Shown here piece by piece: positions 723 to 63,974 of a stretch of DNA of 64,000 bases. The DNA is from Raja brachyura (lineage: Eukaryota). Both the position numbers and the translations under genes were made by a program. Each line of letters opens with the position of its first letter. Positions within the stretch are counted from its first letter, which is position 1. The DNA lies in contig OY740811.1 of the NCBI GenBank assembly GCA_963514005.1, forward strand, positions 5,890,001 through 5,954,000, written 5' to 3'. The notes under the pieces were generated by a model that saw only the letters and a program-made list of their open reading frames with translations, was not told the origin of the DNA and did not search any database.

Positions 723-729
723 AACTTAT

Positions 730-2738: not shown

Positions 2739-2751
2739 TAAGAGACGCACT

Positions 2752-3379: not shown

Positions 3380-3575
3380 ATCAACCATCTGCCTATCAAA
3401 ACCCCCTTCGCCTGTGTACACCTAGTACCTGCCACGCTTTCTCCTGTCCATCCACTCTTCCAGCTTTCGTTCCACCCTCAGTCTGAAGAAGGGTCCTGGC
3501 CTTGAAACGTCACCTATCCATGTTCTCCAGGGATGCTGCCTGCCCGTAGATATACTCCAGCACTTTGTGTCTTTA
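3380..3575 (+). mobile_element. PLE 3' terminal fragment
   Basis: Pyrimidine-rich UTR, then hammerhead motif, then GATGCTGCCTGCCC...TACTCCAGCACTTTGTGTC terminus. Confidence 0.75.
3483..3511 (+). ncRNA. Minimal hammerhead ribozyme motif, intact core, PLE-associated
   Basis: CTGAAGA-AGGGTC-CT-GGCCTT-GAAAC-GTC: CUGANGA box, pairable stem II, GAAA box and GUC cleavage triplet. Stem III is reduced to the palindrome ACGT; stem I is only about 2 bp. Activity not shown. Confidence 0.6.
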
Positions 3576-6238: not shown

Positions 6239-6318
6239 CGGGTCTCAACCCAAAACGTCACCCATTCCTTCTCTCCAGAGATGCTGCCTGTCCCACTGAG
6301 TTACTCCAGCATTTTGTG
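6239..6318 (+). mobile_element. 80-bp PLE terminal insertion with TSD
   Basis: Flanked by TAATACCATTT (6228-6238) and TAATGCCATTT (6319-6329); starts inside the hammerhead stem II. Confidence 0.7.
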
Positions 6319-6409
6319 TAATGCCATTTGGTCTAATTCATCAAGTCTTAGTAAAAAGCCTTCACAATATACATTGGTGAGACATAAGAAACTAACATCA
6401 AGGAGACCT

Positions 6410-6620
6410 GAAGCAACAAATGATCTGCTGGAGGAGCTCAGTCAGTCAGGCAGCATCTGTCGGGGGGTAATGGCAGTCAACATTTTGGATCGGGACCAGA
6501 TGAAGGGTCTCAATGTGAAACAGCGACTGTCCATTTGCCTCCACAGATGCTGCCTGACCGGCTGAGTTCATCCAGCAGCTTGTTTGTTCCTTGTTCCAGT
6601 ATCTACAGTCCTTGTGTCTC
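6410..6620. mobile_element. Fold-back PLE-derived element, older subfamily with CTGATGA-type motif
   Basis: CTGCTGGAGGAGCTCAGTCAGTCAGGCAGCATCTGT is inverted against ACAGATGCTGCCTGACCGGCTGAGTTCATCCAGCAG; central CAGATGAAGGGTCTCAATGTGAAACAGCGACT. Confidence 0.65.
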
Positions 6621-11998: not shown

Positions 11999-12617
11999 TG
12001 AGAAACAGTGCCATGCATCTGATGTTCTTTGCCATCGTGTGACTTGAATGACATCAGGTCACATTATTCCCTGTGCGGTGCAGAGCAGCGAGAGAAAGGA
12101 GGAATAAGTACATTTATCCAAGGTTCCTCTGTGCTTTCGCTTTTCCTCTGTAAAGTTTACTGTGTGAGCTTTATGAACTTTAAGACATCATATCATCAAT
12201 TTTCTTGCTCTTCTCACCTCGGCGAGCTCTTCCCCCAAGCTGCTTCACAGTTCTTGATTCCCAGAGACAGCAATTCAATAAACTGATAGCCCCAGTCAAG
12301 GCTCATCTACTGATAACTTACTGGTAACTGACAGGCAAGCATTATTAATCTTTCAATCAATATGGGTGGTATAAAACAGGAAATAGCTAAACACAGATCA
12401 ACAGTTCTGAATCAGTGAACTCCAGCTTATCCAATGATTTAGATGTCCATTCACAAGGTTTAATGTCTCACTGTTTACTTGGCTCATTCTATATTCATTG
12501 TTCAAAGCGACGAGAGAAAGAATCAAACCAGAATATTGTCTGCAGTTCTGGTCATCTCATTACAGGAAGAATGTGGAGGCTTTGGGGAGGGTGCAGAGGA
12601 GGCTCACCAGAATGATG

Positions 12618-13018
12618 TAGGAAAGAACTGCAGATGCAGATACAGAAGTGGTGGAGGCAGGATCGATTTTAACATTTAAAAGTAAAGTGGATAGGTATAT
12701 GGACGGGAAGGGAATGGAGGGGTATGGTCTGAGTGCAGGTAGATGGGATTAGGGGAAAATAAATGGTCGGCACGGACTGGAAGGGCCGAGAAGGCCTGTT
12801 TCCGTGCTAAAAAAAAAAAAAAAAAATCAAAATTGCTGGTTTAACCGTAGATAGACACAAAACACTGGAGTAACTCAGCGGATCAGGCAGCATCTCTGGA
12901 GAGAAGGAATGGATGACTTTTCGGGTCATGACCCTTCTTCCAAAACATCACCCATTCCTTCTCTCCAGTGATGCTGCCTGTCCTGTTGAGTTTCTCCAGC
13001 ATCTTGTGTTGATCTTTG
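12618..13018. mobile_element. Fold-back PLE-derived element inserted in CR1
   Basis: TSD CCAGAATGATG (12607-12617) / CCAGAATGGTG (13019-13029); inverted arms about 12860-12915 and 12950-13010. Confidence 0.75.
12646..12826 (+). mobile_element. Young CR1 3' end terminating in A18
   Basis: 12646-12808 matches 4626-4788 with 2 mismatches, followed by 18 A instead of the microsatellite tail. Confidence 0.9.
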
Positions 13019-13909
13019 CCAGAATGGTGTCTGCATAAGAGGGTATTAGCTACAGGGAGATGATGGACAGACTTGGATTATTTTCTCAGGAACAGTAAAA
13101 GTTGTGGGGAGACCTGATAGAAGTATATACAATTATGAGAGGCACAGTTAGGGTAGATTGTCAGAACATTTTTTCCCAGATGAAAAAATCAAATACTAGA
13201 AGGTATAGCTTTAAGATGAGAGGGGCAAACTTTAAAGGAGATGTAAAAAGTCAAAAAGTCAAAAGAGTTTATTGTCATGTGTCCCTGACAGTAGGCATTG
13301 ACTACAAAACAGATCAGTGTGTCCATATACTATATATACATAAATACACACACATGTGTGGACAAGTTTCTTTACACAGAAGGTTGTGAATGCCTAAAAC
13401 GAGCCACCGGGAGTGATGGTTGATGCAGGTACGACTGTGGCATTTAAGAGACCTTTGGATTGGCATACACATATGCAGGGATGGGGGGATATGGATTATG
13501 TGCAGGCAGACAAGAGTTGGGCTTGGCATCATGTTCAGCACAGACGTTTTTGTGCCCTGCACTCTTCTATGATCTATGTTCAGACAAGCCTTGCCTGGAA
13601 AGGATCAGATGACTGAACCACACAGAAAAGGTTTCTTGTTCAAAGGAATTCCAGTGATTAGGGTCTGAAGACACAAATAGGATGGATTCAATCTGATTAA
13701 TTCTCAGTTAATTGGATTGCTCCAAATTTTTCATGGACTCGATCAAGAAAAAGCAGAATTTTTACTTTTGCTTGAAATTACCCTTAAACTCAAAAAAATG
13801 CCACTTTCCATTCCTGTCACCATATAATTTAATGATTCTCGTATACAGTTATATACATGCGGGCATCTTGATTTTCCAGTAAGTGGCTAGTATCTGAGGA
13901 AAGAGTCAC

Positions 13910-23139: not shown

Positions 23140-23489
23140 CTCCCATCCAAAATTTGGATCCTTCAATGTCCCCCTCTGAACTCCGGCGAAAGGACCAAAT
23201 TTCTCTCCCACTTCAAGTTTCTTCTTGGCCCATATCCCTAATCCAGCGCCAGGAATTGAAGACTCCCTTAGCTCAAAGTCAGGTGGGATTGGAATGTCTT
23301 CTGGAATGTAGACAGGGGCTTCATATGGGGACCCTTCTTTTGAGGTGAATTCGTTGCTGGTGGGAAGTGGAGATGGTGGACCCACAGGAATCGGGGACAT
23401 TATACTGTCTTCTGTTTCTTCTCCTCCACTCTCTCCAGCTGGTGGCTCTGGATCTGTCTCATACATATTATCAACCACTTCACTGTCAC
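23140..23489 (-). CDS. PRDM16: PRDM16 coding exon 2 (N-terminal region and start of PR/SET domain); partial gene
   Basis: Peptide [14 protein letters not shown]...[71 protein letters not shown]...FGWE closely matches vertebrate PRDM16 ([54 protein letters not shown]). Acceptor TTAG|GT at 23489/23490, donor GAG|GTGAGT at 23140/23139; 350 bp, phase 1 to 0, as I recall for human exon 2. Confidence 0.95.
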
Positions 23490-26364: not shown

Positions 26365-26962
26365 TCAGATGTACCTCCTCCAAACGCATCTACTGAATCT
26401 GGTGTTCCTGATGTGGGCTCTTGTACATCTGCAAGACCAAATGTAGACTCGTCGACCATTTCACTGAACACTTATGCTTGGTTCATCTAGGTCTATTGGA
26501 TCCTCCAGTTGCCAAGCATTTCAACTCCCCTCCCATTCCCGTACAGACCTTTCTGTCTTGGACCCCCCTCCATTGTCAGAGTAAGGCCACACATAAATTG
26601 GAGGATTAGTACCTCATATTTAGTTCATATCTCTCCCCTCCCCCCTTGCTCCCACCCTTGTTTTACCAGTTCCACAGTTCTCCACATTGCTTTCCTCTTG
26701 ACATCTAGACGACACCTCCCCTAAACAGCATTGGGTTTATCAGGCGCCACCTGCCTGATGTCCTTTGTGGTTGACCCTGATTTGTCCTGGTCTTTTCTCA
26801 CCTGCAGCTCTTCACCCCTCCTCTCCCTCACCCCCTACTTTCAATCTGAAAAAGGGCCCCGACCCATTATTTTTCCCCAAGGATGCTGCCTGACCCTCTG
26901 AGTTACTCCAGCACTTTGTGTCTATATTTGGTATAAACCAGCATCCACAGTTCCTTGTTTCT
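26365..26962 (+). mobile_element. Degenerate PLE: GIY-YIG endonuclease end plus 3' terminus
   Basis: ORF 26421 YICKTKCRLVDHFTEHL...VAKHFNSP (YIGETKRRL.DRF.EHL motif); terminus CTGAAAAAGGGCCCCGACCC...GATGCTGCCTGACC. Confidence 0.75.
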
Positions 26963-27231
26963 ATGAATCTTATGCGCCTTGTTCTTTCCACCATCTCTGA
27001 CTTGAACATATATCTTCCATAACCCAGAATGAGTAATGTAATAAATGAATAAAACATTTGCTTCAGGTATTTTTAAAGGATAGGTGTTCACCAGTTACTG
27101 GAGAGAAATTTGCTGGCCTTTGTATGGTACCAAAGCAACCTGCTACTACGTTTTGAGAGATGGATGTTGACTTGGTTCAATGTCCCCAAAAAAGTCCAAA
27201 AGATGACAATCCATATGCCGAAGTTACATGT

Positions 27232-27400
27232 GTAGGAAAGAACCGCAGATGCTGGTTTGAATCAAAGGTAGACACACAATGCTGGAGTAACTCAGTGGGA
27301 CAGACAGCATCTCTGGAGAGAAGGAATGGGTGACATTTCGGGTCGAGACTGAAGAAGCAATGCTGCCTGTCCCCCTGAGTTACTCCAGCACTTTGTGTCT
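27232..27400. mobile_element. Fold-back PLE-derived element with TSD
   Basis: TSD GCCGAAGTTACATGT (27217-27231) / GCCCAAGTTACATGT (27401-27415); inverted arms TGCTGGAGTAACTCAG / CTGAGTTACTCCAGCA. Confidence 0.8.
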
Positions 27401-30400
27401 GCCCAAGTTACATGTTGAATTCTCTGGAATGGGGCATCAAAACATTCTGAGTGAGAGGTGAAATGGTTACCAATGACCCAAAGTGTGGAGGTACAATGAA
27501 ACAATTATCTATGTGGCCAAGGGGTAACAAATTAACATTTAGAATTTGGAAAAATTCATGAATAAGCACTTGTTGGATACAAAATAGAAGAGAATACACT
27601 GTTATTTAACTCCAAATAAACAGCATTAAAATCATTTGGGATACTTTAAAATGCAAATGCATGTAACACAGATGAAACAAAATTATTTTATTAAGACTTT
27701 TGGTGAACTTTTAATCATTTACGAATTTAAAAAAATTAGGCGAGTGTTTAAGTATGTCAGCTGTGAAACTGATATTACTTGTGGGAGCAACTGAATGGTT
27801 TTATTTCACAGCATATGCTTCCAGGGTCAGAATTGGATAAGAAGCCTATTTGAAATCGGAATCGGACCTGGGGGAACATTGAATGGGAATTAATTTGCGG
27901 TGTAGGATCAGGAGCAAGCACATACCACAGACTAAAATAAACACTTTAAAACATATCAAGAAAAAAAATGTGGGATTAGTCTAGGGAGTAAGTGAAGTCT
28001 GTATGGGCTTTTATATATGGTGCACTTTTATACAGTACAGCCACTTTTGACTGGTAGGGCTGCAATCCAGTGTGAATCTGGGGATAAAATATCAGTGATC
28101 ACATTGAGAGTGATTTCTGGCTGCCAGTGTTTGGGGAAACCTCGTTCCTGGCCTCAAGAAAAAGACACACATTTCTTGTATCACAAGTTTGGCCCAGCAC
28201 TTATTCTACTCCTATCACACAGTTGTTGCAAAAAGCCAGCGTACGGTATCTTTACTTTAATTTCTCACGGGACGCCAGTGGAGAAAGGGAACAATATTGC
28301 ACTCCATGCATGAAAAAACATGTCTGCAGGCTTGGAAAACTTAGAGCAGACCTACCAAAGGCCACAGATGGACGAGATGTAAACAGAAAATGGAGCTGTG
28401 GTATAAAGATTATTTGCCTGTTTACATGTCAAGCACAAAAATATCAAAACATTTATTCTTGTAGGAGCGCTCTGTACAGATATAGCAAGTGGTTTAGTAG
28501 TCACAGTAGTGCATAAAAATGCTGTGAAGCATGGATAACCAGATTGCAGAGTGATAACAACTATTCTAAAATTTGCTTCACTACATTTAAACTGATTGTA
28601 TATCACCATAATGCTCTTCCTAAAAGCACCATAAAAACTAGTAGGTTTCTAGAACAGTGTTATGATGGTTTACCTGCATAATGCCATACTGCATGTGTCA
28701 ACACTGCTACTCCACTGATCTATTGCAAGATCTCTCAGCTGCTACCACCTGCAGCTGAGACTTCCCCAGTTGTCCCATAAAGGGACATACACATGCTACA
28801 GGCAGCTCTTCCAGCTCTTTGGGAATGCATGTGACAAAGAGAGGAGAAGGCAGGGAGTGTGCTCCAATAACCTACTTCTAGAAGAATGACCATGCAAGCA
28901 GGCCACAGGGTTCCTTCAGAGCAGCAGCCAGGCCGTCTTGGCAGAAGGCTTGCAGAGAGTCCATGCAAGGAAGATCATTCCATGATTTCAGCCTATGAAT
29001 GGTTGTACTCTGCAGAAGCCTGCAATGCAGGCAGATACACATGTCCACTCTGCATGTTCCTGTCCAAAGGAAAAGTGTTAAAACCTTCTCTCCTTGGGTT
29101 TAGAGCTTGAGTGATCTTTGTAATATAGCAGTGAGCCCAACACTGTGAAATGTGGCATGTATCAGTGGCAGTTATCTCAAATCATCCCGAGCTGGGAAGC
29201 TGACAGTGAGTTTCACATTGATATTCTGTTGATCTAAGGATTCAGATAAGCAAGGGGGGAAATCTGGAGATACATTTTAGGCATTGTCCAATTGTCAGTA
29301 TAACATGGAAGCATTTAATGGCAGAGAAAGGTTTCTAGTGCAATTGAAAATCCCACTGGAAAGTCAGTAATATTGCTCTGCACCAGAGGAATCCTATTTT
29401 CAATAGCCCAGCATTTTATTTTTTGGATTCATGAGGGAATTTCTAATTTCCTCAGTAAACACGGGTTTTAATGCCATGCAATTCTCATCTTCTCTGCAAT
29501 ATAGAGTGTGAATACAGGAAGCAGAATGGTGTAATATAATTGCTTAAATTCAGAGTGCAATGTAATATCATCTATACAGAATCCACAACATTATCCACTA
29601 CATTAACTCCAAGAAAGCATAATGATCTAACTTCAGATGGTGATGTAAAATATACAATGCAATTTATACAGCTGTATTTTCTCTAATTTCTCTCCAATTT
29701 CCTCACTTGCTGCCTCCAAGCATGTCTTGTTCAGGGGACCATCGTCCTATTCCATTGAGCCAATTTTACTTGAGTTCTGACCAACCAATTTCTCAGCCTT
29801 GTCATCTTACGAGCTGATATTATAATTGACACCCTCTGTTTAGGACTTTACTGTATTTCAAATCTTCCCTTTAAAATCTTATAATTGACTCTCAGTTCCC
29901 AAAACCTCACAACCCTCCATACATCTTGCATTTTCCAGATTCATGCTCAAATCAAAGAGTATCAAATGATTGCTATGTACATTTTTGATTCGGTCGCCAA
30001 TTCATTTTTTACAAGATATCTCATTCTCTTGCATACGGCAACCCTCATTCCAATATTCCAGTTCTGAGAGACACAGGAGACGACAGATTCTGGAATCCTG
30101 TGCAAAAAAATCAAACTGCTGGAGGCAGCAGGAGGGAAATGGACATGCGACGTTCTGAGTGTCAGATCTGTGACACACAAACTCTATCATGCTGTTTGAA
30201 TTGCTTTTCTCCAACCTTGAGCCATAATTTCATTTCTGTCCCAACTTCTTCTCTTCCACCATCCCCTCAAGATTTGTCTGAACTAAACCGAGTCGTGTTC
30301 CGAGTCTTCTATGCATTAGTAACTCAGCAGGCATAAAACCTATTGGCAATGTGCTGTCATTTTAGAGTTCAGTCTTTGCTAACTGATGCTTCATTGTTAA

Positions 30401-31199: not shown

Positions 31200-31700
31200 C
31201 CTAGATCAATTTGCACTTTTTTTTTGTCTTGTCTGTCTGCAGCTGTCACCCAACTGCCTTAGCCTCCCAACTCCACCCTTCACATTTTATCTGCCCCCAA
31301 CGCCACAACATGGCTCTATCTGCACATCATCCCTCACCCTTCCCCGTCCACCTATCATCACTGAGCCTCTGTCTCACTATTTTCCCTCTACTCTCAGTCC
31401 TGATGCAATCTGAAACATTGACAAATCCTTTCCCCCTGACATTTACATTTGGTCCACTGAGATCCTTCAGCAGTTTGTGTTTTGCTTCATCTCTGTAAGG
31501 TATCTTCACTGGCTTGGCTCTAGAATTGTGACAGATTATACTCCTGCATAAAAACACAGTGCTGGAAGAATACTACAGGCCAGGCAGCATCTGTGGTAGG
31601 AATGGACCGTTCAGGTCAGGACCCTTCAGACTGAGATGCTGCCTGATCCACTGAGTTCATCCAACTGAAGATTCCATAAGCTGCAGCTTCTTGTGTCTAT
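31200..31700. mobile_element. Old PLE terminal fragments, including a small fold-back at about 31550-31700
   Basis: AGTCCTGATGCAATCTGAAACATTGAC; CAGGCAGCATCT / AGATGCTGCCTG inverted pair. Confidence 0.55.
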
Positions 31701-33273: not shown

Positions 33274-35091
33274 ACAAGTCGTGCTTAAATACAAGAGAGG
33301 TGCCGGAAGACTGGAGGGTGGCAAATGTTGTGCCTCTTATCAAGATGGGCTGCAGGGAAAGTGCTGGGAACTATGGGCCGGTGACTGGAGAGTATCTTGA
33401 GGGATAGGATATGCAGGCATTTGGATGGGCAAGGGCTGATTAGGGGCAGTCAGCATAGTTTTGTACGTGGGAGGTCGTGTCTCACAAATCAGGTTGATTT
33501 TTTTGAAGAAGTGACGAAAAAGATCGATGAGGGCAGAGCTGTAGATGTTGTGCACATGGACTTCAGCAAGGCGTTCGACAAGCTTCTACATGGTGGGCCT
33601 TTCTGGAAGGTTAGATCATGTGGGAGCCAAGGAGAGATAGCTGAACGGATAGCAAATTGGCTCCATGGAAGGAAGCAGAGGGTAAAGGTGGAAGGTTGCT
33701 TCTCAGACTGGATGCCTATGACCAGTGCTGTGCCTCAGGGTTCAGTGCTGGGCTCGTTGCTGTTTATCATCTACATCAATGATTTGGATGAGAACATACA
33801 GGCCAAGATTTGCAAGTTTGCTGTTGATAAAAAAGTTTGTGAGTTTGCAGATAGCGAAGATGGTTGTGAACGATTGCAGCAGGATCTGGATCGATTGGCC
33901 AGGTGGGCTGAGGAATGGTTGATGGAATTTAATACAGAGAAGTGTCAGGTCTTGGGACTCATTTTGGGACGTTGAACAAGGGCAGGACCTACACAGTAAA
34001 TGTTAGGCCTCTGGGTAGTGCTGTAGGGCAGAGGGATCTAGGAGTACAGGTCCATGGTTCCGTGAAGGTCGAGTTGTGGGTAGATAAGGTGGTCAAAAAG
34101 GCTTTTGGCACTTTGGCCTTCATCAGTCAGAATATTGAGTATAGAAGTTGGGAGGTCATGTTGCAGTTGTATAAAACGTTGCTGAGACCGCATTTAGAAT
34201 ATTGTGTTCAGTTCTGGGCACCATGTTATAGGAAATATATTGTCAAGCTTGAAAGAGTTCAGAAAAGATTTATGTTGCCAGGACTAGAGGGTGTGAGCTA
34301 TAGGGAGAGGTTGAGTAGGCTGGGTCTCTATTCCATGGAGCGCAGGCGGTGAGGGGAGATCTTATAGAGGTATACAGAATGATGAGAGGAATAGATCGGG
34401 TAGATGCACAGAGTATTTTTCCCAGAGTAGGGGAATCAAGGACCAGAGGACATAGGTTTAAGGTGAAGGGGAAAAGATTTAATAGGTATCCGAAGGGTAA
34501 TTTTTTTACACAAAGGGTGGTGGGTGTATGGAACAAGCTGCCAGAGGAGGTACTTGAGGCTAGGACAAAAAGGCTGGCAGCATCATCAAGGACCCACACC
34601 ATCCTGGCCACACACTCATCTCCACGCTCCCTTTAGGTAGAAGGTACAGGAGCCTGAAGACTGCAACAACCAGGTTCAGGAACAGCTACTTCCCCACAGC
34701 TATCAGGCTATTAAACTCGGCTCGGACAAAACTCTGAACATTAATAGCCAATAATCTGTTTATTTGCACTATCAGTTTAATTATTCATGTGTGTATATAT
34801 TTATACAATGGTACATGGACACACTGATCTGTTCTGTATTCGTGCCTACTATGTTCTGGTGTGCTGAAGCAAAGCAAGAATTTCATTGTCCTATCAGGGA
34901 CACATGACGATAAAACTCTCTTGAACTCTTGGACTATCGCATAATTTAAGAAACAGTTAGACAGGTACATGGATAGGACAGGATTGGAAGGATATGGATC
35001 AAGCGTAGCAAGTGTAGCTGGGACATTGTTGGCCATTTTGAGCGAGTTAGGCCAAAGGGCCTGTTTCCACACTGTATCACTCTATGACTCT
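33274..35091 (+). mobile_element. CR1 LINE with degenerate reverse transcriptase domain
   Basis: ORFs 33397-33975 (QHSFVRGRSCLTN, MDFSKAFDK, VPQGSVLG.LLF.IYINDLD, KFAVD), 33942-34352 and 34349-34560; ends GGGCCTGTTTCCACACTGTATCACTCTATGACTCT. Confidence 0.93.
34567..34930 (+). mobile_element. Rex1/Babar-like LINE 3' end nested in CR1
   Basis: Peptide AGSIIKDPHHPGHTLISTLPLGRRYRSLKTATTRFRNSYFPTAIRLLN; (CTCTTGAA)-type tail; GGAC duplicated at 34563-34566 and 34931-34934. Confidence 0.85.
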
Positions 35092-39614: not shown

Positions 39615-41542
39615 CGCTTCCTAAATAGGTCGGCCTCTCAGTCTTCATCGCTATAAGATGTTCCCCAAAAAACCCACCACCACTCGTAACGCCTCCTTCT
39701 TTACCTTAGTGTCCACGTTGCTCCGATCACATTTCTGTTTTATACCATGGAGCATTTTTCTACTTTAAAGATCTACTTAAATGTTAGATTATTATTTTAG
39801 AATGAATTGTAGTACCGTGTAACATAAAATACACTGTTCTCTGGTTAATAAATATTCTAATGTGGAGTGTAAATCCAGGCTGCAGCATTCAGTTATAGCT
39901 GTTACTGCTGCTCATTGTCATTCTACTCAGTATAACTCCCTCTGGACCCATGCAGGTCACTGACGTTTATTAAAACCTCAGATTAATAGCTATGGGAAAA
40001 GACATTTTCACAAACATGATAAATATTAATAATAATCAATATTAACTTACATTTGCTAAATTGAGCTACAAACAATACCCAAGGGTGAATTTTCACCAGA
40101 ATCTGCAGCTGTCTGGAGAGGTAAGGGAGAGGGGATGAGGGACAAGGGTGTTGAAACATAATAAAAGAAAATGTCGACCTTTTTTTTCCCCTTGTCGGAG
40201 AACAATAGAATTCTCCATGATTTTATGTGTGAATTGTGATCTGAACAAGGAAATTGAGGAGGAAACAAAATGTTTATTTGGGTTTAGAGCTGTGTACAGT
40301 ACTTTTGCATTATTGTTCTATCCTGCTTTTGTCTTCAGTTATTTTTAGATAATGACATGTTTCTTGCTGAGGGAACAACAAGGAATTGTTAACAAAGAAC
40401 AAATAAATTGTAATTTTCTTCCTGAACTCTTTTTGCTTCAATGTTAAAACATTTCTGGTTCTCTAAGGCACATGGACAGAGGGAGATATTTGAGCAAACC
40501 CATTCCTGATTCCTGAAACTCCACCTGATTTTCTTCAACCAAGGAACGTTAAATGTTGCTTTATAACAGGCCAACTTACTCATCAAGGACTTGGGATTGT
40601 TTGGGGGGAATTTTACTGCATAATAATGGCTCAAAGTAACAATTATTTGCTGAGCCATCAGGGTAGTACTTACAAACCTAATCATGGCGTGGTTTAGTCA
40701 CGAGATTCTGTCTTGTAATGTTACCTGGTTCCAAGTTACATTCTCATCAGAATTTTTGATTAACTCTGAAGAACACTGGTTTATTGTAGCAATTCAACGT
40801 CAGCTTTTGCTGCATGAAACTGGAGGGAAGCCCCAAAGGGCAAATATATGTTTCTAACATAACTTTAAGATCCCTGGCCTTATGCCACTTGACGGAAAAC
40901 TTGGTCACATCCCCCTACTTCAGCAAAACTTAATGTGGTTCGAAGTCACACACAATGGCTTTCATTGTTCTTTTTTTAACCTTGAGCTGATGCCCTTTCA
41001 ATATAGGGATGCTAAAACTGCACACCTCTTCCTATACCCCCTATCATCCCTCCCTCCTAAATCCATTACTCCTTTGATGGTAAACAATTTGAAATACATC
41101 AAATAAGCCTCTGGGGTACTTAATACACCATTGTTTCCCTTTGAGCCGGGACGGTTGCTCACTTGAAAAAGATTTAATTTTGTAGATTGATCTCAATTGA
41201 TCCCTACCTCATGCAAACATTATCATATTGTCAGCTGGGAAGTGAAAACAATGGAAATAATTGAGAAGTTCCATTAATTTTAACCGTTAACAACAAGGAA
41301 TAGTTGTGCCATGTAAGTACCACATCCAAAGCACCACAGCGCTATTCTTCTATACTGATATTGTAAAATCACCAGCATACTACCTACATTCCCTGCCTTT
41401 TGTTTCAATCACTGTTGCTAATTACAGAAATTACTATTATTTTGCTCTCATTGCAAGATATTTTGATAACCATTGTGATTGGGCGAGAAAAACATTCTGC
41501 GGATAATTTAAATAATTGATGCATAGTTTAAATCACAGGATG

Positions 41543-41640
41543 GTAAACACAAAATGCTGGAGTAACTCAGTGGGACAGATAGCATCTCTGGAGAGAAGAA
41601 ATAGCTGAGGTTGCGGGTCGAGACCCTTCTTCAGACCTAT
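41543..41640 (-). mobile_element. 98-bp PLE terminal insertion with TSD and hammerhead-like motif (41607-41634)
   Basis: Perfect TSD ATCACAGGATG (41532-41542 / 41641-41651); minus strand GTCTGAAGAAGGGTCTCGACCCGCAACCTC. Confidence 0.82.
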
Positions 41641-42769
41641 ATCACAGGATGTTGTAATGAATCAGTTCAATAGTCTTTCCGCACCGAAGCTTTATATTCT
41701 TGTCACGTCAAAAGCGATCTAGGCCCCTGGTCCCTTTCAGAGTTGAGTATAAATCCTCACATGGGTGTAATCCATTAGATTTAAGATCTCTCAGAGGAAT
41801 GGGACCTCAACAACCTCACTACACCATGGGTGAAATCTATGCCAAATTCATCTCATTCCAAGCTGCCTTCCCAATCATCTTCCAAATCTAGTATGTCTAG
41901 AAATTCATACCCAAATGGTAGCAGTTCCTGCTGACAGAGGTAAATGAGAGGCATATACCATTTTTGAAATGTCATTACAATTTGTAGACATCACTATAAA
42001 TTCCATTTAGTTCTTTCAAGCGGGAATAATGTTTATGTAACAAAATATTTAAAACATCTATTCTAATCATGCATTGTAAACTCTGCATTATTTTATTTAC
42101 ATCTTGCTAATTTTATATTTTAGTTTAGTCTAGGTAACAGAATAGGTGGATGAGGAATTTCTCTGATGGGGTGAAATTCTGTAGCCACTGTGGGCCAGTT
42201 ATGCTCCTTCATCTGTGTAACATGCTGTAAATGTTGTAAAGTCTGCATAATATTGTACAGTTAGGTCCATTGGGACATGCCCAACAGCCCAGAGTATACG
42301 AATGGAAGAAAAAGAGAGGGGGGGGGGGGAATGCTTGACAACATACAAACAATGAAAGAGCCGGCTGTCTAAAGATGTAGAGTTTGATATTGAGTCCTGG
42401 AATTGTCCAGAAGAAAGATGTGGTGTTGTTCCTCAAATTTGCTTTTTGCCTCATAGTAGGAGGCAGGAGCCTACAGACAGTGAGATGAGAATAGGAATAC
42501 GATGAGAATTAAAGTGGCAGGCACATGGAAGCTCAGGGTCACTTCTGAAGATGCAGTGGTCCATAATTGCTTTTGGTTTCCCCAATGTTCACAATGTTCC
42601 TCTGCAATCATCTCTTCCTTTTTCTCTCATTTGTATATTTTGGTTTGCTTGGGAAGTTCCAATACACCAGACGATACAATATTACCCAGATTTACTAAAT
42701 AACACATTATACGGACAAAGGAACTTAGCATCATCTGTGGACATCGCTGAATCGTGATGTGCTCATCCT

Positions 42770-43660
42770 CTAGGAAACATGATGTCCCCCCCTGCTAGAG
42801 ATGTGCTCCTTCACCCCATTCTCCCCGTGTTCCACAGTTCTGCTCTCCCTCTCCCTCCACCAAGCCAGAACAAGATTGGAGATTCCCTGGTCCATATATT
42901 TCACCACACCAGCCTCCACATCCAACACATAATTTTCTGACATTTTTGCACCTTCAGCGAGTCACATCTTTTCATCCCCACCCCTTTCTGCTTTCCAGAC
43001 CACTCCCTAGGCACTTTCCCCAGTAACTGCAGGACCTGTTTCTATAACTTCCTCTTAATTTCCATCCAGGAGTCCCACCAGCCCTTCCAGATGAGACTGG
43101 GGTTCACATGTACTTCTTCAAACCTCATCTATTGCATTCAGTACACCCGATGTGGCCTCCTTTCCATCGGCAAGACCACGTGTACACTGGTCGAGTTTTT
43201 CACAGAACACTTGCATTCTGCCTGCCAAGACTGCTCGATCTCCCAGTTGCTTAGTATTTTAACTCCTCTTTCCATTCCCATTTTTCTGTACTTGGCCTCC
43301 TCTGTTACCAAAGTGAGGTCAAATTCAAACTGAAGGAACATCAACTCCTATTTCTATTGGGAAGCTAGCAACCCAATGGTATGAACGCTGGATTCTCCAA
43401 CTTCAAGTAACAGCCCTCCCTCCCTTTCTTTCCCATGCCATCCACTCCAACCCTAGTGCATCTCCCCCCCCCCCCCCCCCCCCAGCTCTAATCAGTTTGA
43501 AGTGGCTATGCTATGTAAACCAACTTGCTTTCCCTTTTCCCAGTTCTGATGAGGTGTCACAGACCTGAAATGTTATGTTTCTCCATCCACAGATACTGCT
43601 GAGATCTTCCAGCTTTTTTCTGTTGATACTTCAGATTTCCAGTACCTGCAGTTTCTTTGG
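42770..43660 (+). mobile_element. Degenerate PLE (linker plus GIY-YIG) with a distinct terminal motif
   Basis: ORF 43091 FTCTSSNLIYCIQYTRCGLLSIGKTTCTL.E.FTEHLHS; terminus CAGTTCTGATGAGGTGTCACAGACCTGAAATGTT (43546-43574). Confidence 0.8.
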
Positions 43661-47460: not shown

Positions 47461-47958
47461 TTATGGGCCAAGGCACGGTTTCATTAATTGGTCAGCACAC
47501 TCGGTTTTGTTGTACTCTTCCACCTATTGTCCGAGAGTTGTGTGGGTGTTAGCTACATTCTTCTTCTTTCTTTGATTTTTCTAAGCCGGTGAGAGAATTT
47601 GGTGTTACGGGCAACACCTTGTGCACAATGGTTCTCAATGTCAATGAGGTGACCAGAAGTTCACTTTGCTCTCTCTCGTAGCTGCATCGTTTTAATATTG
47701 CATTTAATTGGAGTAGAAAGCATCAAATTAGAAATGCAACACAGGTTTACAAATATGTCAAAGATTTCACCACTAGTTTGGTTAAGAACCTATAAATTGC
47801 CAAAAAAGAGAATCATAGCAGTCGCTGAAGAAATCCAATTGATATGCCCTGGTGCTATCAGGTAGATTAAAGTTCACTTAGCATTGGTCAGGATTTATCC
47901 CCAAAGCTGAGATGAACATCAGCTAACATCCAGAAATTAAAAAATCATCTATCTCATC

Positions 47959-48169
47959 TAAGGTAGACTAAAACGCTGGAGAAACTCAATGGGTGAGGCA
48001 ACATCTATGGAGCGAAGGAAATAGGCAAAGTTTACCTATTTCCTTCTTCAGAAGGGTTTTGACCCGAAACGATGCCTATTTCCTTCGCTCCATAGATGCC
48101 TCCTCACCCGCTGAGTTTCTCCAGCATTTTTGTCTACCTTCGATTTTCCAGCATCTGCAGTTCCTTCTT
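47959..48169. mobile_element. Fold-back PLE-derived element (another subfamily) with TSD
   Basis: Arms GCTGGAGAAACTCA..GGGTGAGGC..CATCTATGGAGCGAAGGAAATAGGCA and their reverse complement; TSD AATCATCTATCTCATC (47943-47958) / AATCAACTATCCCATC (48170-48185). Confidence 0.75.
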
Positions 48170-49949
48170 AATCAACTATCCCATCGAGGTGTTTTTGAAA
48201 TCAAGTAAACCTACAACCTGCCACTCACTAACGTGCAAGTCAGCGTCCACGAAATACTATTAGATGTGCAAATGTTTTAACGTACTTATCCCCTCTATAA
48301 TGAAAAAGAAAGACTGAGAAATGTCACTAACATTGTCATACCAAGGCTTATGGAATGTTTGAAGGGATTAAAATGATATTGCATCTTGAAAACAATTATC
48401 GAAGGACAAACTATATTTTGACAGAGCAAGACTAGGAGAAGGGCTGAACAGAATGAACCTTAATAGTATCTTTTAAAAGATATTTAAAGAAACAAAGGAA
48501 CCATGCGGGGATGAACAAAAAGCAGTGCCAACGCAAACACGACTGTCTCACTAAATGCTGAATACATGTTTTGCTTTCCCTAGTGGATGAGAGATCAGGC
48601 CTGCAGTCTCCTATGCGCACTCTATAGCTTCATCTAGCAAACCACTGAAAAAATTCATTAATTTTTATTAACAGAGAAAGCCATTTGTCCCTGCAACAAT
48701 ATTTGACTTGTCTAAATGATTTTCACCTCTGCCATAAGGTATAGGCTCGGCACATATATCACCCGATTACTCTGAGACTAGTGACTCTCAGTCATTAGTG
48801 AGTGAATTAGAGATGATATAAAGTGCTATTAATCACCTTGACAAAAGCCTTAACGTTTCTGTGACCTGACCAGACTTGGGGGACAGGGAGATGCCTGAAC
48901 CGTGCCACTGAGAAATGAGCATTTGCTGGTCAGGCAGAAAAATAAAGAAAATTAGAAAGTCACCGACAATGAACCCAGAGCTAGCAGGGAAAATTGGATA
49001 AGGAGGAGGGCAAGAGGAAAGGCATCTTGCTTCAGGCTCCTGAAACTGCATTCTGGAACAGTGGTCTCCATTCCTAGCTGAAGGTTTCTCAGATGCATCA
49101 TGTTTATACGATTCATTGACTACCAATGGGTATTAATGACAAAATGCTTTGTCTTAATTTACAACTCTTTATTGACATGACCCTCTAATTATATGAAAGG
49201 TGAGGATATTTAAAGAGCCTCCTTAAGGCAACAATTGCTTATCAATGCCTCGATTTTCTAGCTATTCATTACTATGGATTTTTGTATCTACCCCTTTTAG
49301 GATGCAAAGGCATGTCCACAACTATGTGCCTGCCCATATCGCTTTATAAATATATTTTGTTCTATTATTGGTATTGTTGGGAGTACATACGCTGTAAATT
49401 CATCATGCTTTATTTTTCTACACGCTGTTAAAGTTGGAACTCTCTCACTTGAAGAAGACAGTGAACTGAGCACAACTAACAACTCACAAGCTGTTCATTG
49501 TTCCAGGTACAAGTCCAATTGCAGTTGACAATTAGTTCACCAAACACAGGCAATGTTGTCAAATGGTTTATATTGTTTCTATCTCAAATCTATCCCATTC
49601 CTGGCTTCATATGTGTTAGCTGCCTGCCCAGAATGGACTCATTTGCTTGATGTTGCACCTCAGTTGAGAAAACTTTCCACCACAAAGGCGTCGGAGTTGG
49701 GCAGAAATCTGTTTAAATCCACAATTTGTACAGGGCCGCTTTCCAAGAGGAAACTTCAGATCCTGTTGAGCACAACATCTGATTGTTCTCTTCTAATCCT
49801 AGGTGCTGAGGCTCAAGTGAATTAATTAATAGCATGGATAATAAATTGAAAGTGTGATATGACATGTTCCTGAACTGTACCATTCTGCACCAGATGCTGC
49901 TTTGAAGCATCTAAGCCATACAGTCATTCTTCTGTACCATTCATAGAAG

Positions 49950-52440: not shown

Positions 52441-53266
52441 AAAAGCGTACTCTATACATTTTTTAGTACTATCACTTCTTTCCTGTAGGGTGATCAGAAG
52501 TGTACCTGGTATAAATGCAGATTCATACAGTTCCAGTTTGACCTACCTTCTGTATATTCTACGTCTGAAGTCATTGTGGCTGGCAATAGTTAAAAGCAAG
52601 ACTGTGATCCATATTGGTTATTCAGCCTTGAAAGGGTTGTCATCAGCTCCTCCCCTCCACTGTACAGACCCCGCCTCCCCGAACCGTATCCGCCCTGTAA
52701 CACCCATTGAAATATGCTTGACAGTTTCTCATGTGTGCCCCTCTTTATTAGCTCATTGCATGGCTGATGCATATTTAAAGTCTTACAAGACCATCTTCCT
52801 TCACTTTAGCAGTTGCCCAGCAAGCTCCTGAATTGGTGTGAACAGTGATGAATACACAAATCAAATAAGAGAGTTTTTTGGCTGTGTAAATCTTCTCTTC
52901 ACATTATTAATTTAAAAAATCCATTATGCTGTCTCAGTATTGATATTATGATGATGAAAATGCCAGGCCTGGATGAGTCGGCTTCAGGGGAAAATCAGTA
53001 ATTCTTCGCTTGTCGACCGAAGATTGGTTTTGTCTGCAAATAACTGTTTTAAACAATTGCATTGAAAAGAGGCTCAAAACAATGGACTGCTGATGAGACC
53101 TGAATGACAGGACTCCCAGCTGAGGGTCTGAAGCCAATACTAGCAAGTGACAAAGTAAAAAATGAGAAGATGGTTCTCTGACTTACTGCACCTAATAACG
53201 CTAATGACGACATTGGGCTCATTGTCTATTGCATGCCTAATCTATTTGAAATCAATAGATAGAATA

Positions 53267-53515
53267 GCTACAAAATGCTGGAATAACTCAGCAGAACAGG
53301 TAGCATCTCTGGATAGAAAGAGTGGGTGACATTTCGGGTTGAGAACATTCTTCAGACTGAGTCAACTCCCTCTCCACTGGCTCTCAGTCTGAAGAAGGGT
53401 CTCAACCAGAAACGCCTCCTATTCCTCTATCCAGAGATGCTGCTTGTTCCGCTGAGTTACTCCAGCATTTTGTGTCTATCTTCGATGTAAACCAGCATCT
53501 GCAGTTCCTTCCAAC
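53267..53515. mobile_element. Fold-back PLE-derived element with two divergently oriented hammerhead-like motifs and TSD
   Basis: About 95-bp inverted arms; motifs at 53328-53355 (-) and 53389-53416 (+); TSD TCAATAGATAGAATA (53252-53266) / TCAATAGACAGAATA (53516-53530). Confidence 0.85.
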
Positions 53516-54387
53516 TCAATAGACAGAATATCAGCGAGCGGATATATGTGGCTGCCCCTCCGATATCAAAAATGCCTACACTGTTATATTTTTCTCCCTT
53601 TCCTTGCATATGCATTCCCTAGCGACCCAATTTCAAATGTATCAGCAGACATCTGGAGCTGGTTACTCAAGTGACCATCTATCATGCATGAGGTTATACC
53701 AGAAGAGATGAGCATACTGCTTCTATGATAGTTTAATTCATCCTACAGTATGCTTAAAATGATTGTATGTTCTGGAACGTTAAATAAATTCCCTAACCAC
53801 TGGTCTACCAGCCCAGAAGGATCATGGCCTTTAAATTACACTGCCTATTAATCCTTCTTTGAATAGTTACATTCATTCCGTGGTGATTTAAGATGGTCAT
53901 GTATGTTTAAAAACTTCAAAGGTCAATAAGATATTTGCTCTCGAGGTACAGAGCCTTGTGTCCAGAAGTTTTAATGCAATGTGTTTGTTTTAAGTTACCA
54001 AACATGGCAGTCTTGATATATGAGCAAAGTCAATATATTTGCACCATTTAAAAAGTTTGAAATGGAAAATTCTAAATCTGTGGGATAGTGGTTCAGGTGT
54101 AAAACAACCACGCTGCTATATCCTAGACGGCATCAAGCTTCAAGAATGATTTCAGAGCAACAATCAGGCAGTTCAGAGTATTCCATTATGCTCCTGACTT
54201 ATGCTTTGTACTCCTTTGAAAGACAGTCAATGGTATCTTCCAACACTTTAATGATGAATGAGGATCAGCAGGATTTAGCCTGTTTAAATTTATTCTGCTT
54301 TATGCAAACAGAACGCACATGAGCAATTTGATGTTTTGATAGATGCCTGTATTTCAATTGTACTAGAATAGCTAAGCTGGAGGCATA

Positions 54388-55400
54388 CAGCCTGCTTTCT
54401 GCAGAGACTCTATCCCTCCCTTCCTCCCAATTCCTCCGTCTACGCCGCATCTGCGCCCAAGATGAGGTGTTCCACACCAAGACATCCGAGATGTCCTCAT
54501 TCTTTCGGGAACGGGGGTACCCCTCTCCTATCACAGATGAGGCCCTCACTCGTGTTTCCTCTTTCCCCCGCAGATCCGCCCTTGCTCCCCCTCGCCCTAG
54601 ACGCGACAGAGACAGAGTCCCCCTAGTCCTTACCTTCCACCCCATCAGCTGTCAAATACAACACATAATCCTCCGAAATTTCCGCAACCTCCAATGGGAT
54701 CCATTCACTAGCCACATTTTCCCATCTCCACTCCTTTCCGCCTTCCACAGAGACCATTCCCTCCGCAACTCCCTGGTTAACTCTTCCCTTTCCACCCAAA
54801 CCACCCCCTCCCCAGGTACCTTCCCCTGCAACCTCATCTGTTGTATCCGTTGTTCAAGATCTGGACTCTTATTCATCGGTGAGATCAAACGTAGACTGGG
54901 TGAGCGTTTTGCGGAACACCTTCACTCAGTCCCCCTGGACCTGCCTGATCTCCCGGATGCCGGATGCTTTAATTCTCCTTCCCATTCTGACACTGACCTT
55001 TCTGTCCTCGGTCTCCTCCATTGTCAGAGTGAGGGTAAGTGCAAATTAGAGGAACAGCATCTCATATTTCACTTGGGCAGCTTACAGCCCAGTGGTAGGA
55101 ATATTGATTCATCTCACTTCAGGTAGCCCCGGCATTCCCTCTCTCTCTATCCCTCCCCACACTGGGTTCTAATTTTCTCCCTACAAACAGCGAACAATGA
55201 CCTGTTTCCTTTATCATTGTTACTTTTTTGCACATGTTTATTCATTGTTCTTTATCTCTCTGCATCATCGTCTATATCTCTTGTTTCCCTTATCTCTAAC
55301 CAGTCTGAAGAAGGGTCTCGACCTGAAACGCCACCCATTCCTTCTCTCCAGTGATTCCACCTGTCCCGCTGAGTTACTCCAGCTATTTGTGTCTATATTC
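54388..55400 (+). mobile_element. 5'-truncated Penelope-like element: RT thumb/linker, GIY-YIG endonuclease, 3' UTR with hammerhead motif
   Basis: ORF to 55126: SQFLRLRRICAQD..F...RERGYP...VPLVLTFHP...NLICCIRCSRSGLLFIGEIKRRLGERFAEHL...LEEQHLIF.LGSLQPSG.N; motif CTGAAGAAGGGTCTCGACCTGAAACGCC at 55305-55332; TSD AAGCTGGAGGCATA (54374-54387) / AAGCTAGAGGCATA (55401-55414). Confidence 0.9.
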
Positions 55401-60906: not shown

Positions 60907-61709
60907 GACAATAGACAATTGGTGCAGTAGGCCATTCAGCTCTTCGAGCCAGCACTGCCATACAATGTGATCATGGCTAATCATCCCCAATCAATACCCC
61001 GTTCCTGCCTGCTCCCCACATCCCCTGACTCCGCTATCTTTCAGAGCCCTATCTAGCTCTCTCTTGAAAGTATCCAGAGAACCGCCCTCCACCGCCCTCT
61101 GAGGCAGAGAATTCCACATGCTGACAACTCTCTGTGTGAAAAAGTGTTTCCTCATCTCCATTCTAAATGGCTTACCCCTTATTCTTAAACTGTGGCCCCT
61201 GGTTCAGGACTCCGCCAACATCGGGAACATGTTTCCTGCCTCTAACGTGTCCAAACCCATAATAATCTTATATGTTTCAATAAGATCTCCTCTCACCCTT
61301 CTAAATTCCAGAGTATACAAGCCCAGCCGCTCCATTCTCTCAGCATATGACAGTCCCGCCATCCTGGGAATTAACCTTGTAAACCTATGCTGCACTCCCT
61401 CAATAGCAAGAATGTCCTTCCTCAAATTAGGGGACCAAAACTGCACACAATAATCCAGCTGTGGTCTCACTAGGGCCCTGTACAACTGCAGAAGGACCTC
61501 TTTGCTCCTATACTCAACTCCTCTTGTTATGAAGGCCAACATGCCATTAGCTTTCTTCTCTGCTTGCTGTACCTGCATGCTTACTTTCAGATCCTGTGGT
61601 ACTTCCTCTTTTCCCAACTTGACACCATTTAGATAATAATCTGCCTTCCTGTTTTTGCTACCAAAGTGGATAACCTCACATTTATCTGCATTAAACTGTA
61701 TCTGCCATG
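60907..61709 (-). mobile_element. CR1 LINE 3' fragment with (CTATTGT)n tail
   Basis: ORF 61204-61617 KKANGMLAFITRGVEYRSKEVLLQLYRALVRPQLDYCVQFWSP...RGDLIETYKI. Confidence 0.92.
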
Positions 61710-61789
61710 ACAGGTAGAATGACAGTTAATGTGATTGCATGAACTATCTGTAGCTTGCAAATGAGAACAGATTATAGAACAAAGCCTCA

Positions 61790-62363
61790 AGGGCCTGTCC
61801 TACCAGCATCCATGCGATGAGCGCGATCAAACTAGAAGCGGGGGCCGCGCGGAGGTCGGGTGATCCCTGTACAGGGCCGTTCCCACCAGCATGCGCCTGC
61901 ATGCGGCAAGTGCGACCAAACTGGTAGCGAGGGCCGTGCGAAGGCCGGGTGAGTGGCGCATCGTGGCGCAAAGTGAGGCGAACTTGGAGCGAAGTCTTAA
62001 AGGTAAGTTCGCCAGGACAGAGAGGGGCACACAGAGAGGGGCACAGAGGCACACACACACACAGAGGGCCACGGAGCCACACACATAGAGGGTCACGGAG
62101 GCACCTACAGAGAGGGTCACGGAGGCACGACGTCGAGACGGTGTGTACTGCGTTGAGGCGACTGCGAGCCGACAAGCCGTTGCCGCGCAGAATTTTTGAA
62201 CAGTCAGTCTTTCGGAGCCCCGCGCGGTGTCGGGACGAACTCCGTACAATTCCGCACGGCTCCGGCGATCGAAGTGGGACCGGCCCCGCGACGCCGGACG
62301 GCTCAATCGACCACGTTAGATCGCACTCATCGCATAGAGTTGCATGCTGGTGAGACAGCCCCT
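61790..62363. mobile_element. CpG-rich MITE, copy 3
   Basis: TCA-AGGGCCTGTCCTACCAGCAT...ATGCTGGTGAGACAGCCCCT-TAA; colinear with 14004-14581. Confidence 0.88.
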
Positions 62364-63257
62364 TAAGTATGTGTGAAGGAGGTTTAGGCATGGGCAGCGG
62401 ATTCTGCACCACCACAAATCATGGGCTCAGCATCAATAATTGCAGCACCCTGTCCTTGAGTGAGTTGAGCCATTGGGACTGTATCTGTTCCCTGCTGGAC
62501 TTATCCTAGTGTTAGAGAGAGCTATGTGTTTCAGTGTAAACGTTCTTCAATTACCTAAATATTGTAGCAATCCAATGCCAACGTCTGTTTTGGTTGTGTG
62601 GCTGACGATGAATATTTCAAGCCTTAGGCTAAGGGCGTAACTGAAGTGTTGCACATTTCATTTTCTAATTATGGCACATGACACCTGAAAGGAGGTGACT
62701 AACATGTAAGTGTCTGTTGCCAGTGGAAGAGTCAATAACCTTTGCATGGGCTGTATTCCAGGCAGTAAGAGAGTGATGGGGGGGTGAATCATGACTGCAG
62801 TGTTTGGAGTGAAATCAAAGAGTCACTATCAGGGATTTTGGAGCAATGGCCAGAATGAGATTAGGGTCTGGATCTGACTCTTGGGAGCAGGAGCGTAAAG
62901 AGCAGGATCCTTCGAGACCTGAGCCTTGGAAAGTATTATCAGTGGAATCAGTGCTCAGATCAAAGTGGTTAGTGGGCATTCATTGCCATATTGTACCAAT
63001 GAATGGTTGCTCTATATCTTGTTCTAATATCCACCATAATGCTTCTACAGAATGATATTTCCTTTGAGTATCTCTCACTGGAATCGCACTAGGATGTGCC
63101 AAAGTCACAGTTGCCCAGCTGAAATTCTTGTGACACCAAATGCCCCAGAAATAGGAATGATTACATTTCATTCCAGGAAAATTCGAATTTCAATTGTGTT
63201 ATATTGTAAAAAAGCAAATTAAACAATTCAATTTCCACACGATCCTGTATGAATAAC

Positions 63258-63895
63258 GTGTAGAAAGGAATTACAGATGCTGGTTTAAACCAAAGATAGA
63301 TACAAAGACCTGGAATAATTCAGCGGCATCTCGGGAAAGAAGGAATGGGTGATGTTTCGGGTCGAGACTCTTCTTCAAACTGGTTATATAGACAATGATG
63401 TGGAGAGATAAAGAACAATGAATAAAGGATATGCAAAAAAGTAACAATGATAAAGGAAACAGGCTATTGTTAGCTGTTTGTAGGGTGAAAACGAGAAGCT
63501 AGTGCGACTTGGGTGGGGGACAGATAGAAAGAGAGGGAATGCCAGGGCTACCTGAAGTGAGAGAAATCAATATTCATACCATTCGTATCGTATGAGATGC
63601 TGTTCTTCCAATTTGCATTTGGTGGATAGCCCCACCATTCCCTCTCTCTCTCTATCCAACCCCCACCCAAGTCGCACTAGCTTCTCGTTTTCACGCTACA
63701 AACAGCTCACAATGGCCTGTTTCCTTAGAATTTGTTACTATTTTGCATATCTTTTATTCTTTGTTCTTTATCCCTCCTCATCATCTCTCGTTTCCCTTAT
63801 TCCTAACCAGTCTGAAGAAGTCTCGACCCGAAAAACATCACCCATTCCTTCTCTCCAGAGAGGCTGCCTGTCCTGCTGACTTACTCCAGCTTTTT
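63258..63895. mobile_element. Large inverted pair of PLE 3' ends (arms about 250-270 bp)
   Basis: About 63300-63560 is the reverse complement of about 63625-63895 (e.g. GTGAAAACGAGAAGCTAGTGCGACTTGGGTGGGGG / CCCCCACCCAAGTCGCACTAGCTTCTCGTTTTCAC); degenerate hammerhead motifs in both arms. Confidence 0.85.
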
Positions 63896-63974
63896 CCACG
63901 GATCTTCTGTAGGAATAATGCATCTGCTATGGCAATGTATGGATACAAAGCCTGTGATAGTGGTAAGTTTGAAT

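What the first reader, a model, noticed from the sequence alone, without database searches (positions are those of the whole stretch)
53252..53530. TSD-flanked fold-back mini-element with two back-to-back hammerhead motifs
Seen: a 249-bp unit made of two inverted PLE termini (about 95-bp arms, about 22-bp spacer), each with a hammerhead-like motif, bracketed by a 15-bp TSD with one mismatch. The whole palindromic unit therefore inserted in one event and encodes nothing. Established: PLE insertions often show inverted pseudo-LTRs. Inference: either a minimal product of PLE integration or a non-autonomous ribozyme-bearing family that yields a long RNA hairpin from either strand.
Basis: partly seen in the sequence, partly recalled or inferred. 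Interest (0 to 1): 0.7.

Follow-up and report, generated by a model that had tools for sequence, protein, structure and literature searches.

The report
Fold-back scar of Penelope retrotransposon insertion
This is a short, old, head-to-head pair of Penelope retrotransposon ends left by one insertion in a cartilaginous-fish genome; it is an ordinary product of a known element, its two ribozyme motifs are mutated, and six similar scars lie in the same 64 kb.

Summary
In detail: two inverted ~97-nt arms (fold z = -15.7) inside a 15-nt target-site duplication that no control matched. The arms are 3' ends (pLTR) of a Penelope-like element (PLE); a GIY-YIG ORF remnant 1 kb away ends in the same sequence. 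The 'spacer' is the 5' continuation of the right arm, which also carries the ~33-nt PLE 'tail'; the left arm lacks it. Six more head-to-head pairs lie in the window, each with different truncation points and one tail; five of the seven have a TSD. The junction sits at single-copy depth in one relative, and contigs of four relatives run into the element, so no empty site was seen. Both hammerhead cores carry mutations at conserved positions, lie on opposite strands and are buried in the hairpin. Verdict: a one-off PLE integration product of a kind already described, not a mobile ribozyme family. Residual interest: the host holds >100,000 contigs' worth of these ends, so the one-tail rule and a cluster of 5' ends at the hammerhead edge could test PLE integration models.

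The parts
53252..53266 (+). Left target-site duplication (80% A+T); last 3 nt overlap the left arm
53264..53361 (-). Left arm: inverted, 5'-truncated PLE pLTR end, no tail; 5' end 6 nt before hammerhead C3
53328..53355 (-). Degenerate minimal hammerhead motif: core letters kept, G10.1 changed, stem II 2 of 5 pairs, palindrome broken
53362..53382 (+). Hairpin loop = unpaired 5' continuation of the right arm (pyrimidine-rich pLTR stretch), not foreign DNA
53383..53483 (+). Right arm: 5'-truncated PLE pLTR end, sense on +
53389..53416 (+). Degenerate minimal hammerhead motif: U16.1 changed to C, C11.1 to A, stem II 3 of 5 pairs
53484..53515 (+). PLE 'tail' (~33 nt), on this end only; family-wide 3' ends pile up at 53481-83 and 53511-12
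   Evidence: (table 7)
53516..53530 (+). Right target-site duplication
54392..55400 (+). Separate PLE 3' remnant (RT thumb, GIY-YIG-type endonuclease with an internal deletion, stop at 55126, then pLTR with the same hammerhead at 55305); identifies the family
47943..48185 (.). Sister fold-back of another subfamily, TSD 14 of 16, tail on the right only, different junction
27216..27415 (.). Sister fold-back, TSD 15 of 16, tail on the left only
12607..13030 (.). Sister fold-back, TSD 11 of 12, tail on the left interrupted by a later ~190-nt insertion
63243..63918 (.). Sister fold-back with long arms (about 360 and 270 nt), TSD 12 of 14, tail on the left only
6416..6620 (.). Older sister fold-back, tail on the right, TSD not significant
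31552..31698 (.). Older sister fold-back, tail on the right (read by eye behind a deletion), no TSD

Best explanation
One integration by an endonuclease-bearing PLE, with both DNA strands primed. The PLE protein nicked an A+T-rich target at two sites about 12-15 nt apart. One nick primed reverse transcription at the downstream start site (giving the right arm with its tail), the other at the start site ~33 nt upstream (left arm, no tail). Both cDNAs stopped after ~100-155 nt, were joined head-to-head, and gap filling made the TSD. The product codes for nothing, was never copied as a unit and has decayed since. Shown here: PLE origin, TSD, one tail, arm-derived loop, junction diversity, mutated ribozymes. 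Inferred: the order of priming and the assignment of one start site to each nick. That it is a one-off PLE product by this route or by the first two rivals together: about 0.9.
For: Arms match the pLTR behind a GIY-YIG remnant at 80-85% (protein). TSD beats all controls, and 5 of 7 window fold-backs score >=8 against 0 of 182 and 14 of 1500 controls. Each of 7 fold-backs has one tail (6 by alignment; 1 by eye; 0.5^7 = 0.008 if ends were independent) and its own pair of 5' ends. Two 3'-end peaks ~30 nt apart followed by T-rich DNA in 4 of 4 runs. An Anolis PLE nicks and extends both strands, starts at two adjacent internal sites whose gap is the tail, prefers AT-rich DNA and is predicted to be a dimer (PMC11167929). 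Junction contig in X7 has depth 21 against 28 and 25 for the flanks.
Against: The in vitro study saw no difference in start site between the two strands, so it does not itself explain the one-tail rule. The tail-bearing arm is the longer one in 5 of 7 (P = 0.23), which snap-back predicts and this model does not require. No empty site was seen, so the TSD is not confirmed by an ancestral allele. The seven loci and their borders were picked by hand from BLAST hits. No genome of the host was available.
Confidence: 0.5

Rival explanations
1. Snap-back (self-priming) in the same single event: one cDNA primed at the tail site stalled, folded back on itself leaving the 21-nt loop, was copied as the second arm and joined the second nick before the tail.
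For: Loop belongs to the tailed arm here and the tailed arm is longer in 5 of 7. Arms share 3 non-consensus letters. L001 shows the same layout with 174-nt arms 98% complementary. Arkhipova 2013 reads palindromic head-to-head PLE junctions as self-priming (PMC3846280, passages).
Against: 2 of 7 do not fit; sharing >=2 non-CpG variants occurs in 23 of 165 copy pairs; arms are 81% alike, no closer than the right arm is to unrelated copies (84%); it must stop by chance at a position that is also a family-wide 3' end and an RNA start site in vitro.
Confidence: 0.28
2. Reduction of a longer insertion: inverted pLTR + pLTR-ORF-pLTR-tail lost its middle by recombination between the direct pLTRs (as in solo-LTR formation) or by hairpin deletion.
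For: That longer layout with a 9-10 bp TSD and one tail is described and would collapse to exactly this form; two sister loci show internal deletions.
Against: Short 5'-truncated single copies with TSDs occur in the window (6240, 41549), so short products arise directly; organism C has the same junction, and no relative showed ORF sequence at the site in the rows displayed.
Confidence: 0.12
3. A mobile non-autonomous fold-back family (MITE-like or retrozyme-like) with a fixed junction and working ribozymes.
For: Compact, TSD-flanked and non-coding; PLE cis ends can mobilise other sequence in trans; only one window and one relative's junction contig were examined.
Against: Junction found once in the window; seven different junctions; single-copy depth in X7; both cores mutated, on opposite strands, and paired to the far arm with mean probability 0.77 and 0.83, whereas PLE minimal hammerheads need a same-sense dimer; TSD lengths vary 11-16 nt.
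Confidence: 0.05
4. Two independent insertions that landed head-to-head, the flanking repeat being chance or belonging to the first.
For: The family is dense (about 25 pieces in 64 kb) and PLEs insert next to earlier copies; arms differ by 19%.
Against: One TSD brackets both arms with none at the junction; the same layout with a bracketing TSD recurs 5 times in the window; arm ages do not differ.
Confidence: 0.03

Closest known systems
Inverted, 5'-truncated insertions of EN+ Penelope-like elements (Craig et al. 2021, 10.1101/2021.04.23.441226; Arkhipova et al. 2013, PMC3846280)
   Same: Inverted truncated copy abutting the 5' end, 30-40-nt tail on one end only, variable TSD, hammerhead in the pLTR.
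   Different: Here both copies are cut to pLTR ends, so no ORF lies between; the described examples mostly enclose an ORF or captured DNA.
Minimal hammerheads of PLEs (Cervera and de la Pena 2014, PMC4209133)
   Same: Core with a bulged base before stem II, palindromic helix III remnant; the paper notes pairs 100-700 bp apart on opposite strands in Schistosoma, and a Drosophila form with a 2-bp helix I preceded by the intron end.
   Different: Cores here are 34 nt apart and both mutated; no cartilaginous fish was named in the parts read.
Poseidon PLE of Anolis (PAc; Frangieh et al. 2024, PMC11167929)
   Same: Two 3' ends a tail apart, the far one about 120 nt past the start of stem II (111-118 in PAc), AT-rich targets.
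   Different: Relatives of this family have the CX2-5CxxC linker of Neptune/Nematis, which Penelope/Poseidon lack; clade not tested by a tree.
Animal non-LTR retrozymes (10.64898/2026.07.22.740005)
   Same: Non-coding, PLE-derived, type I hammerhead.
   Different: Retrozymes are head-to-tail tandem units with intact ribozymes; this is head-to-head with mutated cores.
L1 twin priming and MITEs (own knowledge)
   Same: Inversion made during insertion with a TSD (twin priming); short palindromic non-coding unit (MITE).
   Different: Twin priming inverts upstream, non-overlapping sequence, whereas here the same 3' end is present twice; MITEs have symmetric ends, a fixed TSD length and many identical copies.

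Membership tests
EN+ Penelope-like element insertion | Sequence is the pLTR of an RT + C-terminal GIY-YIG element | tested here: met
   Arms 80-85% to 55301-55400, which follows a frame whose Atlas neighbours (0.96) carry GIY-YIG and HTH_animal and whose homologues carry RT motifs. Pfam alone gave no hit on this decayed frame.
EN+ Penelope-like element insertion | 5' truncation with an inverted truncated copy at the 5' end | tested here: met
EN+ Penelope-like element insertion | 30-40-nt tail on one end only | tested here: met
EN+ Penelope-like element insertion | Variable-length TSD | tested here: met
   (11-16 nt at seven window loci)
EN+ Penelope-like element insertion | Empty orthologous site with one TSD copy | tested here: inconclusive
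   4 of 21 listed runs laid; all appear to carry the insertion
Neptune/Nematis clade | CX2-5CxxC linker before the endonuclease | tested here: inconclusive
   Present in 5 of 5 aligned homologues; the window copy at 54392 has a deletion there and the one at 42941 a decayed form; no phylogeny run
Active minimal hammerhead ribozyme | Intact core, G10.1-C11.1, A15.1-U16.1, stem II | tested here: not met
   both motifs break G10.1-C11.1; the right one also lacks U16.1
Active minimal hammerhead ribozyme | Same-sense partner for dimer formation, core free to fold | tested here: not met
   Opposite strands; core paired to the far arm, P 0.77-0.83
Active minimal hammerhead ribozyme | Self-cleavage in vitro | not testable with these tools
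   needs an assay
Non-LTR retrozyme | Head-to-tail tandem units each with a complete hammerhead | tested here: not met
   definition
Non-autonomous fold-back family / MITE | Many copies with the same junction | tested here: not met
   One copy in the window, single-copy depth in X7; diverged copies elsewhere in the genome not excluded

The most novel reading that the evidence does not exclude
The fold-backs are a large natural record of a coupled, two-strand PLE priming reaction on a short template: one protein-RNA complex uses each of the two start sites once (hence one tail), and many cDNAs end at a fixed point at the 5' edge of the hammerhead, where a polypyrimidine-CAG splice-acceptor-like site lies. 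If that point is an RNA 5' end or intron boundary, the very numerous ~100-130-nt copies would be run-off products of a short or processed pLTR RNA, in effect a SINE-like life cycle of PLE ends, and its fold-backs would supply frequent intronic dsRNA in these fish.
Probability: 0.2. Interest if true: 0.6.

Novelty: new member of a known kind. Interest (0 to 1): 0.22.

Why it matters
As a single locus it matters little: the layout is in print for PLEs. How PLEs make inverted ends and the tail is still called undefined. A genome with on the order of 100,000 short PLE ends and, by this window, a fold-back every ~9 kb would allow two-strand priming, snap-back and later reduction to be told apart by counting alone. 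Such hairpins inside introns are also candidate dsRNA, as inverted Alus are in primates (own knowledge; not tested).

Tried and rejected
Genome-wide junction search: no host genome held. Rfam: no hit in the window at gathering, no hammerhead at E<=10 on the locus or on L001 330-510 (only generic hairpin matches to miRNA models below their cut-offs). Pfam: 0 families on the three PLE frames. Expression and editing: no RNA holder listed, so no evidence either way; contigs cannot show editing. Earlier findings: nothing returned. Metagenome scan for the head-to-head motif: 1 locus, L001, of another family; no TSD established there. Joint table shows many left-to-right joins but the letters between are mostly unknown and 568 rows were cut, so it was not counted. 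Shared arm variants as proof of one template: rejected (23 of 165 pairs do as well). 5' ends at the ribozyme cleavage site (+28): no cluster seen. Assembly artefact: rejected (arms 19% different; junction identical in organism C). First coding exon of the host gene: not found in the window.

Full report
Observation. The + strand folds at -141.9 kcal/mol, z -15.7, 0 of 200 shuffles as stable. The direct repeat 53252-53266 / 53516-53530 matches at 14 of 15. With a score of matches minus twice mismatches and 8 nt of slack at each border, it scores 12; 0 of 182 mismatched-flank pairs reached 8, and of 1500 random pairs 14 reached 8 and 0 reached 11.

Identity of the arms. BLAST of the unit against the window hits about 20 other places. 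One, 55301-55400, follows a frame (54332-55126) whose nearest Atlas clusters (0.96) carry GIY-YIG and HTH_animal and whose 6 longer homologues among 2860 candidates include RT-bearing proteins and records from Hypanus (51%), Chiloscyllium (48%) and Rhinoraja (72% over a quarter). The alignment shows RT motifs, a cysteine linker and a CxxC between the GIY and YIG positions, the PLE signature in Craig et al. (passages). Pfam itself found nothing on this decayed frame. So the arms are 3' ends of a PLE pLTR in a cartilaginous fish; Neptune/Nematis is a lead, not tested by a tree. An exon at about 23140-23489 (-) is closest to PRDM16 (E 1.7e-33; MECOM 1.3e-22). No first exon was found with recalled motifs, so the unit probably lies in a long upstream intron, which is inference.

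Anatomy. The left arm is an inverted copy from 6 nt before hammerhead C3 to about +94. The right arm starts at about -23 to -27 and runs to +127. The 21-nt loop aligns to the upstream part of other copies (24 of 28 with the copy at 1836), so there is no separate spacer. The last ~33 nt are the PLE tail. In 4 of 4 relatives, loose ends of family contigs pile up at 53481-83 and 53511-12 and continue T-rich (X7: 1146 and 752, top rows only). This matches Anolis PAc, where reverse transcription starts at two adjacent internal sites whose gap is the tail, both strands are nicked and extended, and AT-rich DNA is preferred (PMC11167929, parts 1-2 of 4 and passages; figures and supplements not seen).

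One-off or family. I picked seven head-to-head pairs in the window by hand (6416, 12617, 27229, 31552, 47955, 53264, 63260). Their 5' ends relative to C3 differ in every case: +9/+2, +2/+20, +10/complex, -7/+45, +21/-1, -6/-23, below -200/-181. Five of 7 have a TSD score of 8 or more, as do 2 of 7 single-arm loci tested. Each pair has one tail: 6 by alignment, 1 by eye. The finding's junction occurs once in the window. Of 21 listed runs I laid 4. In X7 an 86-nt contig covers 53310-53395 without a difference at depth 21.1, against 28.2 and 25 for the flank contigs; I read that as single copy, which excludes only near-identical copies in that organism. 122,165 to 143,169 contigs per run were laid, nearly all on the repeat.

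Empty site. Flank contigs (2.5-5.8% substitutions) end 25-30 nt inside the left arm in 4 of 4 runs and 23-24 nt inside the tail in 3 of 4 (X17 starts at 53560). That is below the tool's 31-letter rule for bridging, but an empty allele would have run from flank to flank, and no such join is among the rows shown (568 rows cut).

Age of the arms. They differ from the window consensus at 9 of 93 and 15 of 94 columns (P = 0.27), are 81% alike, and share 3 non-consensus letters, 2 outside CpG, which 23 of 165 pairs equal or exceed. Same subfamily and age are not rejected; a single template is not shown.

Ribozymes. Less decayed copies keep a minimal hammerhead core with a bulged base, stem II and a palindromic helix III remnant, with only a 2-bp helix I, like the forms in Cervera and de la Pena (PMC4209133, parts 1-2 of 4). 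In the finding, the right motif has lost U16.1 and C11.1 and the left has lost G10.1 and 3 of 5 stem II pairs; position names are assigned from my own knowledge of the numbering. Any transcript holds one sense motif, paired to the far arm with mean probability 0.77 (+) or 0.83 (-), and these ribozymes cleave weakly and as dimers. Activity is unlikely; it was not assayed. Rfam has no hammerhead hit.

Mechanism. I favour priming at both nicks, one start site each (0.5), over snap-back (0.28) and reduction of a longer insertion (0.12). For: the tail-less end is a family-wide end and an in vitro start site. Against: in vitro the strands did not differ in start site, and the tailed arm is longer in 5 of 7 (P = 0.23), as snap-back predicts; Arkhipova et al. 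favour self-priming (PMC3846280, passages). L001, the only hit of the metagenome scan, shows the same head-to-head hammerhead layout in another family with 174-nt arms at 98%; its PLE origin was not tested.

A lead. Of 25 pieces examined, 17 have 5' ends between -30 and +50; the 8 longer ones were left out, and values were curated by hand. Eight of the 17 fall within 10 nt (-7 to +2), scan P = 0.016 against a uniform spread. All 8 copies shown that keep the upstream part are pyrimidine-rich there (0.68-0.92) and 7 of them have CAG just before the core, which resembles a splice acceptor; in D. virilis Penelope the intron ends at the 5' side of helix I. The sample is small and subfamily differences can mimic truncation.

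Comparison with print. An adjacent inverted truncated copy, a tail on one end and variable TSDs are described for PLEs (10.1101/2021.04.23.441226 passages; PMC8969392 passages; PMC2377424 passages), and opposite-strand hammerhead pairs 100-700 bp apart are noted. Retrozymes are head-to-tail (10.64898/2026.07.22.740005, part 1 of 5 and passages). Six searches (listings only beyond the papers named) showed no title or abstract on pLTR-only fold-backs in cartilaginous fish, but the library lacks most subscription papers, Repbase and Dfam could not be searched, and supplements were not read.

Verdict. Real, explained, a new member of a known kind. Interest 0.22.

Noticed in passing
window 23140-23489 (-): Exon closest to the PR domain of PRDM16; the fold-back lies 30 kb upstream of it in gene direction.
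   Followed up: partly
window 53367-53388, 1836-1870 (-), 55270-55304, 63777-63811, 3448-3482, 31365-31399, 43511-43545: Pyrimidine-rich stretch ending in CAG just before the hammerhead core in several subfamilies, like a splice acceptor; short copies' 5' ends cluster there.
   Followed up: partly
window 42753-43660 and 26371-26960: Older PLE 3' remnants (60-62% to the one at 54392); the one at 43546 has a CUGAUGA-type core.
   Followed up: partly
window 460-735: A piece that reads like PLE RT-region coding sequence (recalled motif) joined directly to a pLTR end with tail.
   Followed up: no
window 12638-12830: A later insertion ending in a run of A splits the tail of the fold-back at 12617-13016.
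   Followed up: no
window 6228-6329 and 41529-41651: Single short pLTR ends without tail, each with its own TSD (10 of 11, 13 of 14).
   Followed up: partly
window 33385-34636, 4328-4732, 61204-61725: RT-bearing LINE fragments (RVT_1 E 9.5e-17 at 33385); CR1-like by recall.
   Followed up: no
window 2224-2822, 13943-14588, 61744-62418: Three related GC-rich repeats with short internal tandem units that give long stop-free frames; not identified.
   Followed up: no
L001 241-597: Near-perfect 174-nt fold-back with two intact-looking minimal hammerhead cores head-to-head, in a record of another family.
   Followed up: partly
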